Of a stretch of 64,000 bases of DNA, positions 9,147 through 28,361 are shown piece by piece. Location of the stretch: IMG/VR virus record IMGVR_UViG_3300028392_000065, positions 2,845-66,844 of that record, one strand, 5' to 3'. A program made the position numbers and the translations under genes. The notes under the pieces are model-generated. The model searched no databases. It was given only the letters and a program-made list of their open reading frames with translations, and had not been told where the DNA came from. This DNA comes from a virus. Position 1 is the first letter of the stretch, and each line of letters opens with the position of its first letter.

Positions 9147-9217
9147 CACAGTCACTAGGAGTCGAACCTAGGCTATCGGTTTTGGAGACCGAGGTGCTAC
9201 CGTAACACTTTGACTGC
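9147..9217 (-). tRNA. tRNA-Trp (CCA)
   Basis: Cloverleaf: acceptor GCAGTCA/TGACTGT, D stem GTGT/GCAC, anticodon stem TCGGT/ACCGA with loop CT-CCA-AA, T arm CTAGG-TTCGACT-CCTAG, discriminator G; 3' CCA not encoded. Confidence 0.9.
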
Positions 9218-24050: not shown

Positions 24051-24391
24051 ACCCCTTCTCCGGATTTATTAGGAAATTTGAACTGCTAGACCAGGACTTA
24101 CAAGACATTGCTGAAGAAATTGAAACCTACAGCAGTGATTTGAAAGATGCTATTGGTAAATATGAAAAAGCCAGAGCGGAAGCGACACTAACTGTTACAG
24201 GTACTGTGCTTGAAAAAGAATCACAAGCCACTCTTGCCACTATGGGAGAAAGATGGGGTGTGTTAGAAGCCAAGCACATGTTCGATGTTTGTAAAATACG
24301 CATCGGGATACTTGAAACACGCGTGGCCGCTGTCCAGTCGGCATCATCACTGGTTAAAGCAGAAGCCTCTCTATCCGGAGCCTATAACTAA
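24047..24391 (+). CDS. coiled-coil hypothetical protein
   Basis: 114 aa, ATGA-coupled. Confidence 0.7.
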   Translation: MNPFSGFIRKFELLDQDLQDIAEEIETYSSDLKDAIGKYEKARAEATLTVTGTVLEKESQATLATMGERWGVLEAKHMFDVCKIRIGILETRVAAVQSASSLVKAEASLSGAYN

Positions 24392-24717
24392 TGACTATTG
24401 ACCGTAAAAACCTTTACAAAAGGTGCAACGGTCACTGCGAAAAATGCGGTGGTGCGTTACCTGAAAGCTGGGCTGCGCACCACCGTAAACTCCGCTCACA
24501 AGGCGGAAAAGACACTCTCGACAATGTTGTAGCTCTGCACCATGAATGCCACAACCTAGGCACCAAAAGTGTTCACTTGAATCCAAAAGTTTCATATGAA
24601 TCAGGACACATGGTCAGGTCATACAGCAACCCAGAAGAAACACCAATAGAAATACCATTTACCGGTCTTGTTTTACTTAACAAGGAAGGTGAATACGTTA
24701 TAACCAACACAACATAA
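24391..24717 (+). CDS. HNH endonuclease
   Basis: CEKCG...HHRKLRSQGG...N...HHECH. Confidence 0.88.
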   Translation: MTIDRKNLYKRCNGHCEKCGGALPESWAAHHRKLRSQGGKDTLDNVVALHHECHNLGTKSVHLNPKVSYESGHMVRSYSNPEETPIEIPFTGLVLLNKEGEYVITNTT

Positions 24718-24729
24718 CAGGAGAAACAC

Positions 24730-25725
24730 ATGGCACACCACTTCGACTCAGGAATGTTTGCACGCAAACCAGCCTGGCACGAATTAGGAACCGTACTAGA
24801 CACTTGGCCAGGCTCTTTTGAAGAAGCCCGTATCCAAGCAGGTCTCACTTGGGACCCAGTAACAACCCGCCTTTGGGCAGCCGACACAGACGAAATGGAT
24901 GATGTAGCGTTTAATGCTGATCACCAGCTTGTTGAAGGTTGGAAAAGAATCGTACGTAGCGACAATAAAGAACTGCTGTCTATTCAGCGTGATTCGTACG
25001 CTGTCATTACTAATGGCGAATTTGGAAACATTATCGATTATGTTTTAGGTGATAATGACATGGTTGGAACTTCTAACCTAAAGTTTGAAACACTTATTAG
25101 TTTGCATGGTGGTAAGCAAATTATTGCCACGATGTACCTTGATGAACCAGTCGTACTCCCTAACGATCCTTCAGCAACCTACCCGTACCTGGTGTTTATT
25201 TCACGCCATGATGGGCAAGGTGGTTTGAAGTTAGGGCCTACAGCAGTACGGGTAGTTTGTGCTAATACCCAAGCTATTGCGGAAAGCGAAATGGAATCAC
25301 ATAAGTTTGCTTTCACTATTAAGCACACTAAAGACTGGGCGTCTAAGTTAACTAACGCTAAGTTGGCTATTCAGCGCAGTTTGACTTCATTTAAGGGCTG
25401 GGAAGAGTACGCACGATACATGGCAACTCAAAATGCACCTCAAAGTATGGCGGAAGATTTCCTAGATAAATGGATTCCGTACTCAACTGACATGTCAGAC
25501 GTGGAAAGGAACAACGCGACTAAGAAGCGGAGTACTTTTTGGTCTGTTTACTACAGCAATACTTGTGAGGGCATTGTTGGAACTAAATGGGGGCTTTTGC
25601 AGGCTGCTATTGAGATTGAGGATCACTTTGTTCGGGCTAATTCCCTTGATACACGTGTTACCCGTACGTTAACTCGTTTGGATAACAATAAAGGTAATGC
25701 GTACAAGGTTCTTGCACAGCTTTAA
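24730..25725 (+). CDS. DUF932 family phage/plasmid protein
   Basis: PAWHELG, SRHDG, VRVVCANT, GTKWGLLQA..E..DH. Confidence 0.85.
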   Translation: MAHHFDSGMFARKPAWHELGTVLDTWPGSFEEARIQAGLTWDPVTTRLWAADTDEMDDVAFNADHQLVEGWKRIVRSDNKELLSIQRDSYAVITNGEFGNIIDYVLGDNDMVGTSNLKFETLISLHGGKQIIATMYLDEPVVLPNDPSATYPYLVFISRHDGQGGLKLGPTAVRVVCANTQAIAESEMESHKFAFTIKHTKDWASKLTNAKLAIQRSLTSFKGWEEYARYMATQNAPQSMAEDFLDKWIPYSTDMSDVERNNATKKRSTFWSVYYSNTCEGIVGTKWGLLQAAIEIEDHFVRANSLDTRVTRTLTRLDNNKGNAYKVLAQL

Positions 25726-25776: not shown

Positions 25777-25848
25777 ACTTGGGAAGAGACCAGCCTTCCC
25801 CAATATAACCTTATGTTTAAATTACTTTGTTTTCTATCCCAATTGGTG

Positions 25849-25878
25849 TTGCATAACTGTCACAAAGTGTGCTATAAT
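25849..25878 (+). promoter_or_regulatory. strong sigma70/SigA-type promoter upstream of the ribozyme array
   Basis: TTGCAT-N18-TATAAT with TGn extension. Confidence 0.75.
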
Positions 25879-25916
25879 AGAAGTATTCGAGCGGTAATCG
25901 TGCTGCCCGAAAATAC

Positions 25917-25949
25917 CCCATCAAACGCCCTGTTTGGTGGGTTTTTTCT
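25917..25949 (+). terminator. terminator-like hairpin in the leader
   Basis: CCCATCAAAC-gccct-GTTTGGTGGG-TTTTTT, directly before SD AAGGAGA. Confidence 0.6.
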
Positions 25950-25968
25950 ATTTAAGGAGAAAATAGAA

Positions 25969-26268
25969 ATGACCACAACATCCACAAGTGAACACCACGA
26001 TTGCGCACATAGTCAGTGCCAGCACGTTGTTGCGTACAGCGACGAGCGTTACTGCTACATGCATGAACCACCAGTTTTTGATGATCATAACTGTGTGGTT
26101 CTTAATTGTGCTCACTGGAAGACAGGCAAGACATTCCGTCCGCTTGAACAACCAGTTGCTGTTGCTGCAGGTCCAAGTTATTCAGAGCAAGTATTGGCCG
26201 ATGCTAAAGCAGAAGCAGCCAAGCTTGCAGATGACTGGGACTGGCCACTGCCAAACGACGATTTCTAA
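25969..26268 (+). CDS. His/Cys-rich small protein (cassette 0)
   Basis: 99 aa from MTTTSTSEHHDC; SD AAGGAGA; its stop abuts HHR1. Confidence 0.75.
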   Translation: MTTTSTSEHHDCAHSQCQHVVAYSDERYCYMHEPPVFDDHNCVVLNCAHWKTGKTFRPLEQPVAVAAGPSYSEQVLADAKAEAAKLADDWDWPLPNDDF

Positions 26269-26329
26269 GTCGAAACCGCCTAGTGCGGTCCATCAGGATT
26301 AACCACCTGATGCTGATGAGACAGGTTAA
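26269..26329 (+). ncRNA. type II hammerhead ribozyme HHR1
   Basis: GTC-GAAA-CCGC/GCGG-TC^(26290)-CATCAGG/CCTGATG-CTGATGA-GAC; loop I TTAACC pairs with 3' GGTTAA. Confidence 0.93.
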
Positions 26330-26340
26330 AGGAGACAGAA

Positions 26341-26517
26341 ATGAACAACAACACAAGTAGAGCTCAAGAACTTATTGGCGTTGGCAAAGCTACTTTGCTC
26401 CTACCAATAGTTCTAATCGGCCTTGGCTTTATCGCCCTCAAGGATGTTGTACGCCGCACAAACCGTGTTGCAGAGATCCTAGACGGTGCCATCGAAGAGT
26501 CGAAACTTCCTCAATAG
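26341..26517 (+). CDS. 58-aa single-TM protein (cassette 1; not in the ORF track)
   Basis: SD AAGGAGA; MNNNTSRAQELIGVGKATLLLPIVLIGLGFIALKDVVRR...; the stop lies within HHR2 stem-loop III. Confidence 0.75.
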   Translation: MNNNTSRAQELIGVGKATLLLPIVLIGLGFIALKDVVRRTNRVAEILDGAIEESKLPQ

Positions 26518-26561
26518 GGGAAGTCTGCTGGGGTAACCGCCCAGCACTGATGAGACAGGTT
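26499..26561 (+). ncRNA. type II hammerhead ribozyme HHR2
   Basis: GTC-GAAA-CTTCCTC/GGGGAAG-TC^(26525)-TGCTGGG/CCCAGCA-CTGATGA-GAC; pseudoknot AACC/GGTT. Confidence 0.92.
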
Positions 26562-26596
26562 CCCAATAGCAATCCTGCTGTTGGGCTTTTTCTTTT
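26562..26596 (+). terminator. terminator-like hairpin between HHR2 and the next RBS
   Basis: CCCAATAGCA-atcc-TGCTGTTGGG-CTTTTTCTTTT. Confidence 0.6.
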
Positions 26597-26607
26597 AAGG
26601 AGAAAAC

Positions 26608-26955
26608 ATGAACGACGATAACAAGGTACGTGGCCTCGGAGAAATCTTCCTACAGGCATTGTTCGAAGCACCTGGTGTTCTAGTTGCTTCAGCCCAGCGT
26701 ATCCAACAGCGTGAGCTTGAAGAAGCAGTTCTGGCACATGTGCGCAACCAGCCACACAACCAGACCATCTGCAGCTCATGCGCACCAACGGTCCCAGCCA
26801 CCGCAGTCAAGGACTGCACTGTCCACGACTTCGGCAAGTGTGTTGTTGACTGCCGTTACCGCACAGGCTTCCCAGGCAAGTGCACCAAAGAGAAGGACTG
26901 GCCTTACTCGCACGGTGACGGTAACTGCAAGCCAGACTGCTACGGTCGCCCGTAA
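26608..26955 (+). CDS. Cys-rich small protein (cassette 2)
   Basis: 115 aa; SD AAGGAGA; Cys/His-rich C-terminal half. Confidence 0.75.
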   Translation: MNDDNKVRGLGEIFLQALFEAPGVLVASAQRIQQRELEEAVLAHVRNQPHNQTICSSCAPTVPATAVKDCTVHDFGKCVVDCRYRTGFPGKCTKEKDWPYSHGDGNCKPDCYGRP

Positions 26956-26958
26956 CAA

Positions 26959-27018
26959 GTCGAAACGCCGTGAGGCGTCTGCCGGAACTGACCTACCGGT
27001 ACTGAGGATGACAGGTCA
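26959..27018 (+). ncRNA. type II hammerhead ribozyme HHR3
   Basis: GTC-GAAA-CGCC(GTGA)GGCG-TC^(26979)-TGCCGG/CCGGTA-CTGAGGA-T-GAC (extra nt after A9); pseudoknot TGACCT/AGGTCA. Confidence 0.88.
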
Positions 27019-27034
27019 AAAAAAGGAGACGGAA

Positions 27035-27316
27035 ATGTTTTGGACAATTGCAACCTACATTTGGCGCATCGCAGAAGTGCTAGTTTTACTCGTACTAGCC
27101 CCAGTGTTGTACCGCATGACCAAAGAACTGTTCGATGACACAAAGTGCCTCAGCTGTTCACGTGTAAGCATCGAAGTATGGGCATGTCATGCTGATCGCA
27201 AATATTGCATCAACTGCTGTGGCTGCCCAGAGCATGCAGATACAACGCATCCATATCGTCACTGCAGCACAGCGCCAGCAAACACGTGGTGCGGTAAATG
27301 TGCTGAAGTTGATTAG
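27035..27316 (+). CDS. TM + Cys-rich (Zn-binding-like) protein (cassette 3)
   Basis: 93 aa from MFWTIAT; SD AAGGAGA; CLSC, CINCCGC, CGKC. Confidence 0.75.
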   Translation: MFWTIATYIWRIAEVLVLLVLAPVLYRMTKELFDDTKCLSCSRVSIEVWACHADRKYCINCCGCPEHADTTHPYRHCSTAPANTWCGKCAEVD

Positions 27317-27375
27317 TCGAAACGCCGCGAGGCGTCTGCTGGGATTGACCTACCAGCACTGAGGAGATAGGTCAA
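27316..27375 (+). ncRNA. type II hammerhead ribozyme HHR4
   Basis: GTC-GAAA-CGCC(GCGA)GGCG-TC^(27336)-TGCTGG/CCAGCA-CTGAGGA-GAT; pseudoknot TTGACCT/AGGTCAA. Confidence 0.92.
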
Positions 27376-27386
27376 AGGAGAAAGAA

Positions 27387-27569
27387 ATGGATGCTAAGAC
27401 AGCATTGGAACATGCAATCGAAGACGCCGAATACATGGCAAAGCGTTTTGGGCGAGGTTCACAAGAACTTGCAGTCCAATACAAAGAAACAGCAATTGCT
27501 CTGCGTAAGGTTCACTCTGCACTGTTCGCAACTAAGCGCGTTTACAAGAAGCGCGAAGCTACTAACTAA
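27387..27569 (+). CDS. 60-aa helical protein (cassette 4)
   Basis: SD AAGGAGA; flanked by HHR4 and HHR5. Confidence 0.75.
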   Translation: MDAKTALEHAIEDAEYMAKRFGRGSQELAVQYKETAIALRKVHSALFATKRVYKKREATN

Positions 27570-27571
27570 AA

Positions 27572-27629
27572 ATCGAAACGCCGTGAGGCGTCTGCCGGCA
27601 TAGCCAACTGGCACTGATGAGACAGGCTA
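27572..27629 (+). ncRNA. type II hammerhead ribozyme HHR5
   Basis: ATC-GAAA-CGCC(GTGA)GGCG-TC^(27592)-TGCCGG/CTGGCA-CTGATGA-GAC; pseudoknot TAGCC/GGCTA. Confidence 0.9.
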
Positions 27630-27640
27630 AAGGAGAAGAA

Positions 27641-27907
27641 ATGACTACTCAAGTAACGTACAAGTCGATCAAAGATTTGTACAAAGTAATTGCTGAAATT
27701 GACGAAAACCAAATGGTTACAGTCACACTCATCCCTTGGGCTTACGAGCCAATCAAATACGTCAACACATTTGATATGACAACCGCTCCATACATGGAAG
27801 TCGTAAACTCTCTCAGCGGATTAGTTGACATCTCTATCGCAGAATACAACAGCAATCCCCACGACGATAAATATCAAGACTCAGATCATAAAGTAGAAGG
27901 TGAGTAA
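27641..27907 (+). CDS. hypothetical protein after HHR5
   Basis: SD AAGGAGA then MTTQVTYK, 88 aa. Confidence 0.75.
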   Translation: MTTQVTYKSIKDLYKVIAEIDENQMVTVTLIPWAYEPIKYVNTFDMTTAPYMEVVNSLSGLVDISIAEYNSNPHDDKYQDSDHKVEGE

Positions 27908-28361
27908 CATGGCTAAAGCAAATCGAATCAAAAGTTTGCTAGCAATGGGTGTTAACAAAGAAGAACTAAAAATTCACATTGTTATGCAAGATGTAGATAA
28001 CTACATAGTTCAAATCATGTTAGACAATGATTTAGCGAGGAGGTTACATTCCAAACTTGAACAAAAATTACTTGACTTGGATTTAGAAATTCATATTCAA
28101 CGCCAGCAAAAAAATAACAATGTGCCAAAATTAAAAGAATTAACACTAGTTACACGCACATGTCCTGTTTGTAATTTGTCTAACAATGTTTATGTGAAAA
28201 CAGAAGGTTTAAGAAAGTGGGAATTTGAAGGGTACAAAATCCAAGACGCTTTCCCAGAACTTACTGCTGAACAACGCGAAACGTTAAAGAGCGGATTCCA
28301 CAACAAATGTTGGGAAGAAGTATTTGCTGATTTAGAAGAAATGGACGATTATGCAGATTAA
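27900..28361 (+). CDS. hypothetical protein with C-terminal Zn-finger-like motif
   Basis: CPVC...IQDAFPEL..EQRE.L.SG.H..CW. Confidence 0.7.
   Translation: MSNMAKANRIKSLLAMGVNKEELKIHIVMQDVDNYIVQIMLDNDLARRLHSKLEQKLLDLDLEIHIQRQQKNNNVPKLKELTLVTRTCPVCNLSNNVYVKTEGLRKWEFEGYKIQDAFPELTAEQRETLKSGFHNKCWEEVFADLEEMDDYAD

What the first reader, a model, noticed from the sequence alone, without database searches (positions are those of the whole stretch)
26269..27629. Array of five type II hammerhead ribozymes punctuating a phage operon into single-gene RNAs
Seen: five copies of [G/A]TC-GAAA-stemIII-TC^-stemI-CTGA[T/G]GA-(T)-GA[C/T] at 26269, 26499, 26959, 27316 and 27572. All keep the hammerhead core (CUGAnGA, GAAA, GUC cleavage triplet). 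Stems I and III differ in sequence but keep their pairing. The loop I/3'-tail pseudoknot covaries between copies (TTAACC/GGTTAA, AACC/GGTT, TGACCT/AGGTCA, TTGACCT/AGGTCAA, TAGCC/GGCTA), so structure rather than sequence is being conserved. Each copy lies at the end of one small ORF and upstream of the AAGGAGA RBS of the next, downstream of a strong promoter (25849-25878). Established: hammerheads cleave after NUH, leaving 5'-OH and 2',3'-cyclic phosphate, and pseudoknotted type II forms are known in bacteria and phages, mostly without a known function. Inference: self-cleavage at 26290, 26525, 26979, 27336 and 27592 gives monocistronic RNAs of 235, 454, 357 and 256 nt. Their 5'-OH ends, capped by a hairpin, should resist 5'-monophosphate-dependent decay. 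This would be a protein-free operon-processing system.
Basis: partly seen in the sequence, partly recalled or inferred. Interest (0 to 1): 0.95.

Follow-up and report, generated by a model that had tools for sequence, protein, structure and literature searches.

The report
Five-hammerhead ribozyme array in phage operon
Five genuine self-cutting hammerhead RNAs sit between six small genes of an uncultured freshwater phage and probably chop one long message into single-gene messages, an arrangement described in phages since 2011, so this is a clean but ordinary example.

Summary
All five elements match Rfam Hammerhead_II (two above the gathering score, three just below). All keep the catalytic core. 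Stems I, II, III and the loop I/3'-tail pseudoknot are supported by covariation across 11 copies from this phage and two relatives. My own scanner reproduces the five predicted cut sites and finds nothing in 100 simulated windows. Each copy lies between a stop codon and the next ribosome-binding site.

The interpretation, ribozyme processing of a polycistronic phage RNA into single-gene mRNAs, is the hypothesis Perreault et al. published in 2011 (PMC3088659). It remains unproven, and no RNA data were available here. Arrays with 7 to 9 candidate copies by my own motif scanner turned up in a small sample of other viral contigs, and Rfam confirmed two to four copies in four of seven loci re-checked. 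This scan has already reported larger arrays on other DNA.

What is specific here:
- Close relatives have the same genes with no ribozymes, or other genes between near-identical ribozymes.
- One relative's copy is a chimera of two of this window's copies.
- So the ribozyme islands are the conserved boundaries of a shuffled gene-cassette region.

Verdict: new member of a known kind, modest interest.

The parts
25849..25878 (+). Candidate sigma-70-type promoter: TTGCAT, 18-nt spacer, extended -10 TGcTATAAT
   Evidence: Read. It has a single copy in the window. It lies in a promoter/leader stretch with DNA similarity to L002, L003, L132 and L134. The simple consensus scan does not list it, because the -35 matches 3 of 6.
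25886..25968 (+). Conserved 5' leader with two hairpins; the second (25917-25941) is terminator-like and is followed by a T-run and the RBS of O1
   Evidence: MFE -29.6 kcal/mol, z = -4.9, 0 of 200 shuffles fold as well. Terminator-like site. 76-86% DNA identity to relatives.
25969..26268 (+). O1, 99 aa, Cys/His-rich, no family
   Evidence: ORF. No Pfam or PHROG match.
26268..26330 (+). HHR1, type II hammerhead; predicted cut after C26290; pseudoknot TTAACC/GGTTAA abuts the RBS
   Evidence: RF02276 37.2 bits, at or above the gathering score of 37. Scanner. Near-identical copy in L134 at 1047-1110.
26341..26517 (+). O2, 58 aa, hydrophobic core; last six codons and the stop codon lie inside HHR2 (stem II strand, GAAA, stem III loop)
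   Evidence: No family.
26498..26564 (+). HHR2, type II hammerhead; predicted cut after C26525; pseudoknot AACC/GGTT
   Evidence: RF02276 46.8 bits. Scanner.
26562..26595 (+). Terminator-like hairpin plus T-run between HHR2 and the RBS of O3
   Evidence: 10 pairs, 5 G-C. MFE z = -3.0. Homologous hairpin follows core-degenerate hammerheads in L132 and L134.
26608..26955 (+). O3, 115 aa, Cys-rich C-terminus
   Evidence: 35% identical homologue in L001/L002 and 32% in L134. No family.
26958..27020 (+). HHR3, type II hammerhead with one extra U after the CUGAGGA box; predicted cut after C26979; pseudoknot TGACCT/AGGTCA
   Evidence: RF02276 30.8 bits, E 0.0016, below the gathering score. Scanner. 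Its 5' 49 nt occur unchanged in DNA contigs of runs X1 and X3 with unlike flanks.
27035..27316 (+). O4, 93 aa, N-terminal hydrophobic helix plus Cys-rich domain
   Evidence: 50% identical homologue in L001/L002. No family.
27315..27376 (+). HHR4, type II hammerhead; predicted cut after C27336; pseudoknot TTGACCT(A)/(T)AGGTCAA; outer stem II pair is G-U
   Evidence: RF02276 29.0 bits, E 0.0047, below the gathering score. Scanner.
27387..27569 (+). O5, 60 aa
   Evidence: No family. DNA similarity to L134 covers HHR4, the RBS and only the first six codons.
27571..27631 (+). HHR5, type II hammerhead; predicted cut after C27592; pseudoknot TAGCC/GGCTA; outer stem II pair mismatched (A/C)
   Evidence: RF02276 35.4 bits, E 1e-4, below the gathering score. 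Scanner.
27641..27907 (+). O6, 88 aa, first gene after the last ribozyme; followed without gaps by O7 and later genes
   Evidence: 72% identical homologue is the first gene after the leader in L001/L002.

Best explanation
The five elements are active type II hammerhead ribozymes, each stabilised by a loop I/3'-tail pseudoknot. A host-type promoter near 25849-25878 drives one transcript through O1 to O6 and beyond.

As each ribozyme emerges it folds and cuts after its GUC. This gives one leader+O1 piece, four single-gene pieces (O2, O3, O4, O5; 235, 454, 357 and 256 nt) and a remainder that starts with O6.

Every upstream product ends in the stem III hairpin with a 2',3'-cyclic phosphate, 8 to 24 nt after its stop codon. 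Every downstream product starts, with a 5'-OH, directly at the stem I hairpin. The loop of stem I stays knotted to the tail that runs into the AAGGAGA ribosome-binding site.

The likely benefit is insulation. Each small accessory gene gets the same defined, structured 5' and 3' ends and the same translation-initiation context whatever its neighbours are. Its mRNA decays independently of the rest.

Shown: the ribozyme identity, the structure conservation and the placement. Inferred: the cleavage, and the consequences for stability and translation.
For: Identity:
- RF02276 matches all 5 copies (2 of 5 at or above the gathering score).
- Every core nucleotide is present in all five.
- There are 0 scanner hits in 100 simulated windows against 5 observed.

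Structure, on 11 copies (5 from the window, 3 from L134, 3 from L132):
- 93.8% of cells form pairs, against 18-48% when partners are slid.
- 9 of 21 pairs show double changes.
- The covariation score is 0.392 against 0.180 +/- 0.022 in shuffles (0 of 500 reach it).
- The pseudoknot shows A-U to G-C switches at 2 of its 6 pairs.

Placement:
- All five stops lie 8-24 nt upstream of the cut, never downstream.
- Start codons lie 49-56 nt after the cut, or 83 nt for HHR2, which has the extra hairpin.
- In 187 scanner-defined type II hammerheads from the fetched loci, 157 have an ORF stop within 40 nt upstream of the cut, against 146 of 935 random positions.
- In the same set, 132 have SD plus start within 40 nt after the core, against 100 of 935 random positions.
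- 164 of 169 nearby stops lie upstream of the cut.

Literature (passages read):
- Three tandem prophage hammerhead arrangements cleave during in vitro transcription, and one triple set cleaves in E. coli. [quoted passage not shown]
- Three type II hammerheads near phage-like genes cleave in vivo in Desulfovibrio vulgaris (PMC8782182).
- The synthetic hammerhead insulator RiboJ raises transcript about 2-fold and protein 2- to 10-fold in E. coli (PMC6206723).
Against: - No RNA evidence exists for this locus.
- Three of 5 copies score below Rfam's gathering threshold.
- Nested MFE folding is no better than shuffles for HHR3-5 (z = 0.0, -0.9, -0.8). It recovers the full three-way junction only for HHR1 and HHR3.
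- HHR3 has an inserted U next to the core, and HHR5 has only two stem II pairs.
- Relatives L001, L002 and L003 express homologues of O6, O4 and O3 from the same promoter/leader with no hammerhead anywhere in their records (0 of 3 records). The ribozymes are therefore dispensable for these genes.
- Relatives carry copies with broken cores (L134 at 1949: 22.6 bits; L132 at 5176: no match at E <= 1) that keep their stems. This hints that something other than cutting may also be conserved.
- The terminator-like hairpin after HHR2 may end many transcripts before O3.
Confidence: 0.7

Rival explanations
1. The hammerhead islands serve, besides or instead of RNA processing, as short conserved homology blocks at which related phages exchange, reorder, gain and lose single-gene cassettes by homologous recombination. 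Each cassette would carry its own processing site and RBS. This reading does not exclude cleavage.
For: - Between the window's operon and relatives L132 and L134 (DUF932 protein 59-60% identical), blastn similarity is confined to three kinds of island: the promoter/leader, the hammerhead islands (77-94% identity), and the terminator hairpin plus RBS. One island also runs into the 5' end of the O4 homologue. The rest of the cargo shows no similarity.
- Homologous genes are in a different order: O3-O4-O5-O6 here, and O6'-O4'-O3' tightly packed with no ribozymes in L002.
- The L134 copy at 1948-2012 matches HHR3 over its 5' 55 nt and HHR2's tail and terminator after the core, so the switch lies inside the ribozyme.
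- O5 and a 71-aa L134 ORF share only HHR, RBS and the first six codons.
- DNA contigs from three runs:
  - records 9 and 15 follow the window through O1 and HHR1 and diverge right after its RBS at 26335;
  - records 6 and 18 hold HHR3's 49 nt unchanged between unlike flanks;
  - record 11 joins an HHR5-like 3' half, 271 other letters and an HHR3-like 5' half.
- The phage encodes an exonuclease (phrog_284).
Against: - Mosaic boundaries fall at gene ends in most phages whatever lies there.
- Strong selection on a ribozyme would by itself leave conserved islands between fast-evolving ORFans.
- Short metagenome contigs can be mis-joined at repeats.
- Only a handful of relatives were available, so no enrichment test of breakpoints against other intergenic sites was possible.
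Confidence: 0.3
2. Cleavage is a down-regulating or timing device rather than a stabiliser. Cutting would uncouple downstream genes from the promoter-proximal message and expose pieces to decay, or would be slow or conditional, so that expression ratios within the operon are set by ribozyme speed.
For: - Copies differ in features known to change rate: stem II of 3, 3, 3 (plus an inserted U), 3 with a wobble, and 2 pairs; pseudoknots of 4 to 8 pairs.
- Perreault et al. suggest that slower phage variants could be regulated.
- The 2019 review speaks of 'different stabilities or translation efficiencies'.
Against: - Both ends of every product are closed by hairpins.
- The RBS is kept intact and next to a standard structure.
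- RiboJ-type cleavage raises rather than lowers expression in E. coli.
- No ligand-binding or switch-like extension is visible.
Confidence: 0.15
3. Ribozyme-flanked ORFs are excised and circularised, by self-ligation or a host RNA ligase, into circular mRNAs or mobile RNA cassettes. This is the idea in the first reader's companion note, based on GAT/ATC across O5.
For: - Each excised piece carries the 3' half of one hammerhead and the 5' half of the next, and has 5'-OH and cyclic-phosphate ends.
- The only two deviant stem II strands (27366-27368 and 27572-27574) flank O5 and are complementary to each other (note e1-6211280).
Against: - In 11 arrays of three or more copies, stem II is fully paired in cis in 50 of 51 copies.
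- Pairing with the next copy (34 of 40) is no better than with the previous copy (35 of 40). Where neighbours differ (GCC/GGC beside GTC/GAC), the cis pairing is the one kept.
- By my own reckoning, one deviant in each strand set lands on adjacent copies in the right order 4 times in 25 by chance.
- Perreault et al. looked for spliced or circular products and found none.
Confidence: 0.03
4. The copies are inactive relics or purely structural hairpin modules that no longer cut.
For: Relatives hold core-degenerate copies with preserved stems. Three window copies score below the Rfam threshold.
Against: All invariant core positions are intact in all five window copies, and helices covary. Stops are kept upstream of every cut site.
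Confidence: 0.05

Closest known systems
Type II hammerhead ribozyme with loop I/3'-tail pseudoknot (Rfam RF02276; Perreault et al. 2011, PMC3088659)
   Same: Same core, same permutation (stems I and III capped, stem II open and only 2-3 bp) and same pseudoknot position. Two copies pass the family's gathering score.
   Different: Three copies fall 1.6-8 bits short of the threshold. One has an extra U between the CUGANGA box and stem II. In four of five copies the pseudoknot's 3' strand lies within 5 nt of the SD sequence (it overlaps the motif's first A in three), and one ORF ends inside a ribozyme.
Clustered hammerheads flanking single genes or short gene blocks in prophages (Clostridium scindens, Azorhizobium caulinodans, Agrobacterium tumefaciens; Perreault et al. 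2011)
   Same: Several hammerheads on one strand flank individual, non-conserved genes in phage DNA. The proposed role is processing of a long transcript into single-gene mRNAs.
   Different: There are five consecutive junctions here, against three in the one arrangement whose size the passages I read give (the A. tumefaciens triple); the figures were not seen. All are one type, on an uncultured lytic-looking freshwater phage rather than a prophage. Arrays with 7 to 9 scanner-defined candidates exist in other viral contigs (two to four Rfam-confirmed copies in four of them), so five is not exceptional.
Type II hammerheads near phage-like genes in Desulfovibrio vulgaris, shown active in vivo by cyPhyRNA-seq (PMC8782182)
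   Same: Same ribozyme type and phage-gene context. Two of them lie about 300 nt apart.
   Different: Those have in vivo end mapping. This locus has none.
RiboJ and related synthetic ribozyme insulators (PMC6206723; the original design paper is recalled, not read)
   Same: It works alike. A hammerhead upstream of an RBS removes upstream context and leaves a hairpin at the new 5' end, and transcript and protein levels rise.
   Different: RiboJ is an engineered type III-derived sTRSV ribozyme with an added hairpin, used once per gene. Here natural type II copies are chained, and the retained structure is stem I plus a pseudoknot.
RNase III processing of the phage T7 early polycistronic RNA into single-gene mRNAs with stabilising 3' hairpins
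   Same: The outcome would be the same: an early phage operon cut at every intergenic hairpin into individually stable messages.
   Different: T7 depends on a host protein enzyme. Here the RNA would cut itself and leave 5'-OH and cyclic-phosphate ends instead of 5'-phosphate and 3'-OH.
Repeated intergenic elements that bound shuffled ORFan cassettes, such as the promoter-stem-loop repeats of T4-type phages and integron attC sites (recalled; not checked here)
   Same: Short conserved elements separate highly variable single-gene cargo, and junctions between relatives fall at the elements.
   Different: No recombinase or dedicated mechanism is evident. The element here is a ribozyme with an RNA-level role.

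Membership tests
Hammerhead ribozyme, type II (RF02276) | Conserved core: C3 U4 G5 A6 N7 G8 A9, G12 A13 A14, the A15.1-U16.1 pair, and H17 at the cut site | tested here: met
   All five copies show CUGA-N-GA, GAAA and GUC in the right order and spacing (alignment). HHR3 has one inserted U after A9.
Hammerhead ribozyme, type II (RF02276) | Three helices around the core, with stems I and III closed by loops and stem II open; base pairs next to the core intact | tested here: met
   On 11 copies: stem III 100% paired, stem I 92.2%, stem II 96.8%. Seven pairs in stems I and III show double changes. The 1.1-2.1, 10.1-11.1 and 15.1-16.1 pairs are standard in all five.
Hammerhead ribozyme, type II (RF02276) | Pseudoknot of four or more pairs between loop I and the tail 3' of stem II | tested here: met
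   4 to 8 pairs in each window copy. On 11 copies 89.1% of cells are paired, and 2 of 6 pairs switch A-U to G-C.
Hammerhead ribozyme, type II (RF02276) | Score at or above Rfam's gathering threshold (37 bits) | tested here: inconclusive
   2 of 5 pass (46.8, 37.2). 3 of 5 do not (35.4, 30.8, 29.0), though they have E 1e-4 to 5e-3 in the local scan.
Hammerhead ribozyme, type II (RF02276) | Mg2+-dependent self-cleavage after H17 | not testable with these tools
   No RNA run holds the stretch. This needs in vitro transcription or end-specific RNA-seq.
Clustered phage/prophage hammerheads (Perreault et al. 2011) | Several hammerheads on one strand flanking single genes or short gene blocks in phage DNA | tested here: met
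   Five copies in five successive gaps between six ORFs. The record is a tailed phage with DNA polymerase, helicase, exonuclease and major head protein.
Clustered phage/prophage hammerheads (Perreault et al. 2011) | All copies cut within the native polycistronic RNA | not testable with these tools
   Shown for other arrays in the paper. Not tested for this one.
freshwater-2 RNA motif (RF02980) | Score at or above the gathering threshold (49.9 bits) | tested here: not met
   25.0 and 20.1 bits, E 0.7 and 6.9, at 26506-26614 and 25921-25971. Only the hairpin, U-run and RBS part resembles it.
Intrinsic terminator (hairpins at 25917-25941 and 26562-26585) | G+C-rich stem followed by a T-run | tested here: inconclusive
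   Both fit the pattern scan. However, the region has 16 such sites against 9.6 +/- 3.4 in shuffles, and termination itself was not tested.

The most novel reading that the evidence does not exclude
The hammerheads have two roles. They are RNA-processing sites. They are also the portable, conserved end-pieces of single-gene expression cassettes that this phage group swaps, reorders, gains and loses by recombination within the roughly 65-nt ribozyme islands. That would make a ribozyme-bounded cassette system for accessory genes, functionally comparable to integron or promoter-stem-loop cassettes. The ribozyme would guarantee that any newly acquired gene is expressed with standard mRNA ends and a standard RBS wherever it lands.
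Probability: 0.25. Interest if true: 0.55.

Novelty: new member of a known kind. Interest (0 to 1): 0.3.

Why it matters
The biological role of bacterial and phage hammerheads is still formally unproven, 15 years after they were found. This locus is compact at about 1.8 kb. It has one promoter, five ribozymes of graded architecture and six tiny genes. Natural relatives carry the same genes without ribozymes, or the same ribozymes with other genes.

That makes it a convenient natural test bed for two questions. Does self-cleavage insulate and stabilise single-gene messages? Do ribozyme islands guide cassette exchange?

It does not reveal a new kind of system. The arrangement and its interpretation are in print, and larger arrays are common in uncultured phages.

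Tried and rejected
**Searches and tests that led nowhere**
- blastn (distant mode) of 25800-27950 against 50,697 phage records gave no match.
- No RNA holder is listed for the stretch. The three runs listed are DNA with small shares of the words, so transcript ends could not be examined. Parts of the stretch without contig cover are not interpreted.
- My first regex scanner missed HHR2 and under-counted arrays. It was replaced by the exhaustive scanner. Only the latter is used.
- Protein-anchored searches of viral contigs with O6 and O4 alignments returned only the two relatives already known, plus four remote loci (31% identity). None of these has a hammerhead by my scanner.
- The metagenome scan with the DUF932 alignment gave 12 loci. 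Only L132 and L134 reach into the operon.
- The O1-O6 cargo has no Pfam or PHROG family at E <= 0.01. I did not pursue their function.

**Weak or negative support**
- Nested MFE folding is weak support, because the pseudoknot competes with stem I in HHR4 and HHR5.
- The consensus promoter scan does not list the proposed promoter, and promoter-like sites are not enriched in the region (6 found against 13.5 expected).

**Readings considered and rejected**
- freshwater-2, SNORD24 and snR83 hits and mir-17, mir-1976 and trpB hits in relatives are far below threshold and were rejected as chance.
- The circular-cassette reading was tested on stem II pairing and is not supported.

**Caveats on counts**
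- L058's nine scanner hits, and those of L051 and L010, got no Rfam match at the gathering score. Those arrays are scanner-defined only.
They include the window's five and the relatives' four copies. Four duplicate loci (L124-L127) were dropped.

**Literature limits**
- Searches for later work on phage hammerhead arrays found nothing beyond the 2011 paper, the 2019 review and the 2021 method paper.
Perreault's Figures S1-S3 and Dataset S1 may hold larger arrays or this ribozyme subfamily.
Full report
**1. What is there**

The window is bases 2845-66844 of a 66,844-base linear IMG/VR virus record, estimated 86% complete. It is a tailed dsDNA phage with DNA polymerase, DnaB-like helicase, exonuclease and major head protein. 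G+C is 39-46%. The only sequencing runs that share words with the stretch are metagenomes, two of them labelled freshwater.

The finding lies in a plus-strand block downstream of an HNH endonuclease gene (24391-24717) and a DUF932/phrog_1221 gene (24730-25725).

From 25849 the order of features is as follows:

| Feature | Coordinates | Size |
|---|---|---|
| Candidate promoter | 25849-25878 | |
| Structured leader | 25886-25968 | |
| O1 | 25969-26268 | 99 aa |
| HHR1 | 26268-26330 | |
| O2 | 26341-26517 | 58 aa |
| HHR2 | 26498-26564 | |
| Terminator-like hairpin and T-run | 26562-26595 | |
| O3 | 26608-26955 | 115 aa |
| HHR3 | 26958-27020 | |
| O4 | 27035-27316 | 93 aa |
| HHR4 | 27315-27376 | |
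| O5 | 27387-27569 | 60 aa |
| HHR5 | 27571-27631 | |
| O6 | 27641-27907 | 88 aa |

After O6 the genes are tightly packed with no further ribozymes. O1 to O6 have no Pfam or PHROG family.

**2. Are they hammerheads, and more than chance?**

- Rfam's Hammerhead_II model matches all five copies full-length on the plus strand. Scores are 46.8 and 37.2 bits (at or above the gathering score of 37) and 35.4, 30.8 and 29.0 bits (below it, E 1e-4 to 5e-3 in a 3.5-kb scan).
- They are the only five matches in the whole record. No other ribozyme family reaches threshold in the window.
- All five show the CUGA-N-GA box, GAAA and the GUC triplet. HHR3 has one extra U between the box and stem II.
- Stem II is GUC/GAC in HHR1-3, has a G-U outer pair in HHR4, and has an A/C mismatch in HHR5.
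- A scanner of my own requires the core motifs, a stem III of at least 3 pairs and a stem I of at least 4 pairs. It finds exactly these five, with cuts after 26290, 26525, 26979, 27336 and 27592. It finds none on the other strand and none in 100 first-order-Markov simulations of the window.

Two metagenome relatives add six copies. Four of these are Rfam matches of 36.1-44.2 bits. Two have broken cores: one scores 22.6 bits and the other has no match at E <= 1.

On the 11-copy alignment I tested the hammerhead structure including the pseudoknot:

| Measure | Observed | Control |
|---|---|---|
| Cells forming pairs | 93.8% | 18-48% with partners slid by 1-3 columns |
| Pairs with changes on both sides | 9 of 21 | 5 of 500 shuffles reach this |
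| Covariation score | 0.392 | 0.180 +/- 0.022; 0 of 500 shuffles reach it |
| Pseudoknot pairs switching A-U to G-C | 2 of 6 | |

These copies are related, so the shuffle counts are not probabilities. The slid controls make the same point.

Thermodynamic folding alone is weak support, with z-scores of -2.6, -2.8, 0.0, -0.9 and -0.8. The nested algorithm trades stem I against the pseudoknot in HHR4 and HHR5.

**3. Placement**

- Every upstream ORF ends before the cut, by 22, 8, 24, 20 and 23 nt.
- O2's last six codons and its stop codon lie inside HHR2. The stop is at the loop of stem III. The same is true for two ORFs in L134, whose stops sit in stem III loops.
- Start codons follow the cut by 51, 83, 56, 51 and 49 nt.
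- The pseudoknot's 3' strand lies within 5 nt of the AAGGAGA site in four copies, overlapping the motif's first A in three of them.

This layout is the rule, not a peculiarity. The sample was 187 scanner-defined type II hammerheads in all loci fetched.

| Feature | Hammerheads | Random positions |
|---|---|---|
| ORF stop within 40 nt upstream of the cut | 157 of 187 | 146 of 935 |
| SD plus start within 40 nt after the core | 132 of 187 | 100 of 935 |

In addition, 164 of 169 nearby stops lie upstream of the cut.

**4. What is already known**

Perreault et al. 2011 (passages read) described natural type II hammerheads and their pseudoknot. [quoted passage not shown] Three tandem arrangements cleaved in vitro, and one triple set cleaved in E. 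coli. They looked for spliced or circular products and found none.

A 2019 review (passages) repeats the processing idea as still needing work. Three type II hammerheads near phage-like genes were shown to cut in vivo in Desulfovibrio vulgaris (passages).

Arrays are also common:
Per locus-strand with at least one hit, my scanner counts 70 with one copy, 29 with two, 7 with three, 2 with four, 1 with five (the window), 2 with seven (L009, L056) and 1 with nine (L058).
- Rfam at the gathering score confirms 4 copies in L056, 3 in L055, 2 in L009 and 2 in L026. It confirms none in L058, L051 or L010.
- This scan's own earlier notes list arrays of 7 to 22 copies in other genomes, all filed under the 2011 arrangement.

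**5. How it most likely works**

Cutting would leave each upstream piece ending in the stem III hairpin with a cyclic phosphate. Each downstream piece would begin, with a 5'-OH and no unpaired leader, at stem I. The loop of stem I remains paired to the tail next to the RBS.

From general knowledge of bacterial mRNA decay (recalled, not checked here):
- 5'-monophosphate-stimulated RNase E and RNase J attack such 5' ends poorly.
- 3' exonucleases are blocked by a terminal hairpin and a cyclic phosphate.

The synthetic hammerhead insulator RiboJ, which leaves a 5' hairpin ahead of an RBS, raises transcript about 2-fold and protein 2- to 10-fold in E. coli (passages).

I therefore favour insulation with stabilisation of single-gene messages (confidence 0.7 that the copies cut and process the operon). 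The stability consequence is the least certain step. A recent paper shows that self-cleavage can enable translation initiation in eukaryotic RNA viruses (abstract). This is a reminder that cleavage next to a start site can act on translation itself.

**6. What is specific to this locus**

- Relatives with a DUF932 protein 60% identical share the promoter and leader (76-86% DNA identity) but differ in what follows.
- L001, L002 and L003 have no hammerhead in their whole records (0 of 3).
- L002 carries homologues of O6 (72%), O4 (50%) and O3 (35%) packed end to end in the order O6'-O4'-O3'.
- L132 and L134 have hammerheads in the same operon but mostly different genes between them.
- DNA similarity to the window is confined to the promoter/leader, the hammerhead islands (one running into the start of the O4 homologue), and the terminator hairpin plus RBS.
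- The L134 copy at 1948-2012 matches HHR3 in its 5' 55 nt and HHR2's tail and terminator after the core. Relative to this window it is a chimera with the switch inside the ribozyme, and its core is damaged.
- DNA contigs from three runs repeat the pattern. Two follow O1 and HHR1 and diverge just after its RBS. Two hold HHR3's 49 nt unchanged between unlike flanks. One links an HHR5-like 3' half, 271 other letters and an HHR3-like 5' half. Mis-joins at repeats cannot be excluded for such short contigs.

The ribozyme islands are thus the conserved boundaries of a shuffled accessory-gene region. Whether they promote the shuffling, or are merely what selection preserves, is open. I give the recombination reading 0.25-0.3. 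It is compatible with cleavage.

**7. The companion idea of circular cassettes**

The deviant stem II strands of HHR4 and HHR5 flank O5 and complement each other (note e1-6211280). In 11 arrays of three or more copies:
- Stem II is fully paired in cis in 50 of 51 copies.
- Pairing with the next copy (34 of 40) is no better than with the previous one (35 of 40).
- Where neighbours differ, the cis partner is the one that covaries.

I rate this reading at 0.03.

**8. Verdict**

- Observation: confirmed.
- Interpretation: partly supported. Identity and layout are shown, function is inferred, and novelty was overstated.
- Novelty: new member of a known kind.
- Interest: 0.3, mainly as a compact natural test bed with informative relatives.

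Noticed in passing
window 25886-25968: The 5' leader between the promoter and O1 folds unusually well (z = -4.9). It holds a terminator-like hairpin plus T-run only about 35-65 nt after the likely start site, and the T-run can pair with the SD region. It is conserved at the DNA level in L002, L003, L132 and L134. It could be an attenuator or antitermination target, or an RBS-masking element. It gives weak sub-threshold hits to Rfam freshwater-2.
   Followed up: partly
window 26562-26595; L134 2010-2040; L132 5238-5268: The same hairpin, T-run and RBS module follows a hammerhead in all three phages. In both relatives the hammerhead in front of it has a damaged CUGANGA box while keeping its stems and (in L132) its pseudoknot. 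In the window (HHR2) the core is intact.
   Followed up: partly
window 27387-27404 and L134 1455-1472: O5 and an unrelated 71-aa membrane-type ORF of L134 share the preceding hammerhead, the RBS and only their first six or so codons (M-D/E-A-K-T-A-L). This looks like a recombination joint just inside the coding region.
   Followed up: partly
window 27909-28361 (O7) and L009 5969-6136 (minus strand): The C-terminal domain of O7 (phrog_20898, unknown function, with a CxxC motif) also occurs (39% identity) in the gene right after the last copy of an unrelated seven-hammerhead array in L009.
   Followed up: no
L058 2154-5049; L009 6281-9593 (minus strand); L056 8404-11286: Other IMG/VR contigs carry arrays of 9, 7 and 7 scanner-defined type II hammerheads spaced 250-880 nt apart. 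Stem II covaries in cis between GUC/GAC and GCC/GGC within single arrays. None of L058's copies reached the Rfam gathering score.
   Followed up: partly
window 24391-25725: An HNH endonuclease gene and a DUF932 gene directly precede the ribozyme operon. Both genes occur in relatives L001, L002, L003 and L132; in L001, L002 and L132 one or two further ORFs lie between them. DUF932 has no known function.
   Followed up: no
window 9147-9217 (minus strand): A single tRNA gene (56.1 bits) lies on the strand opposite the replication block. The anticodon was not examined.
   Followed up: no
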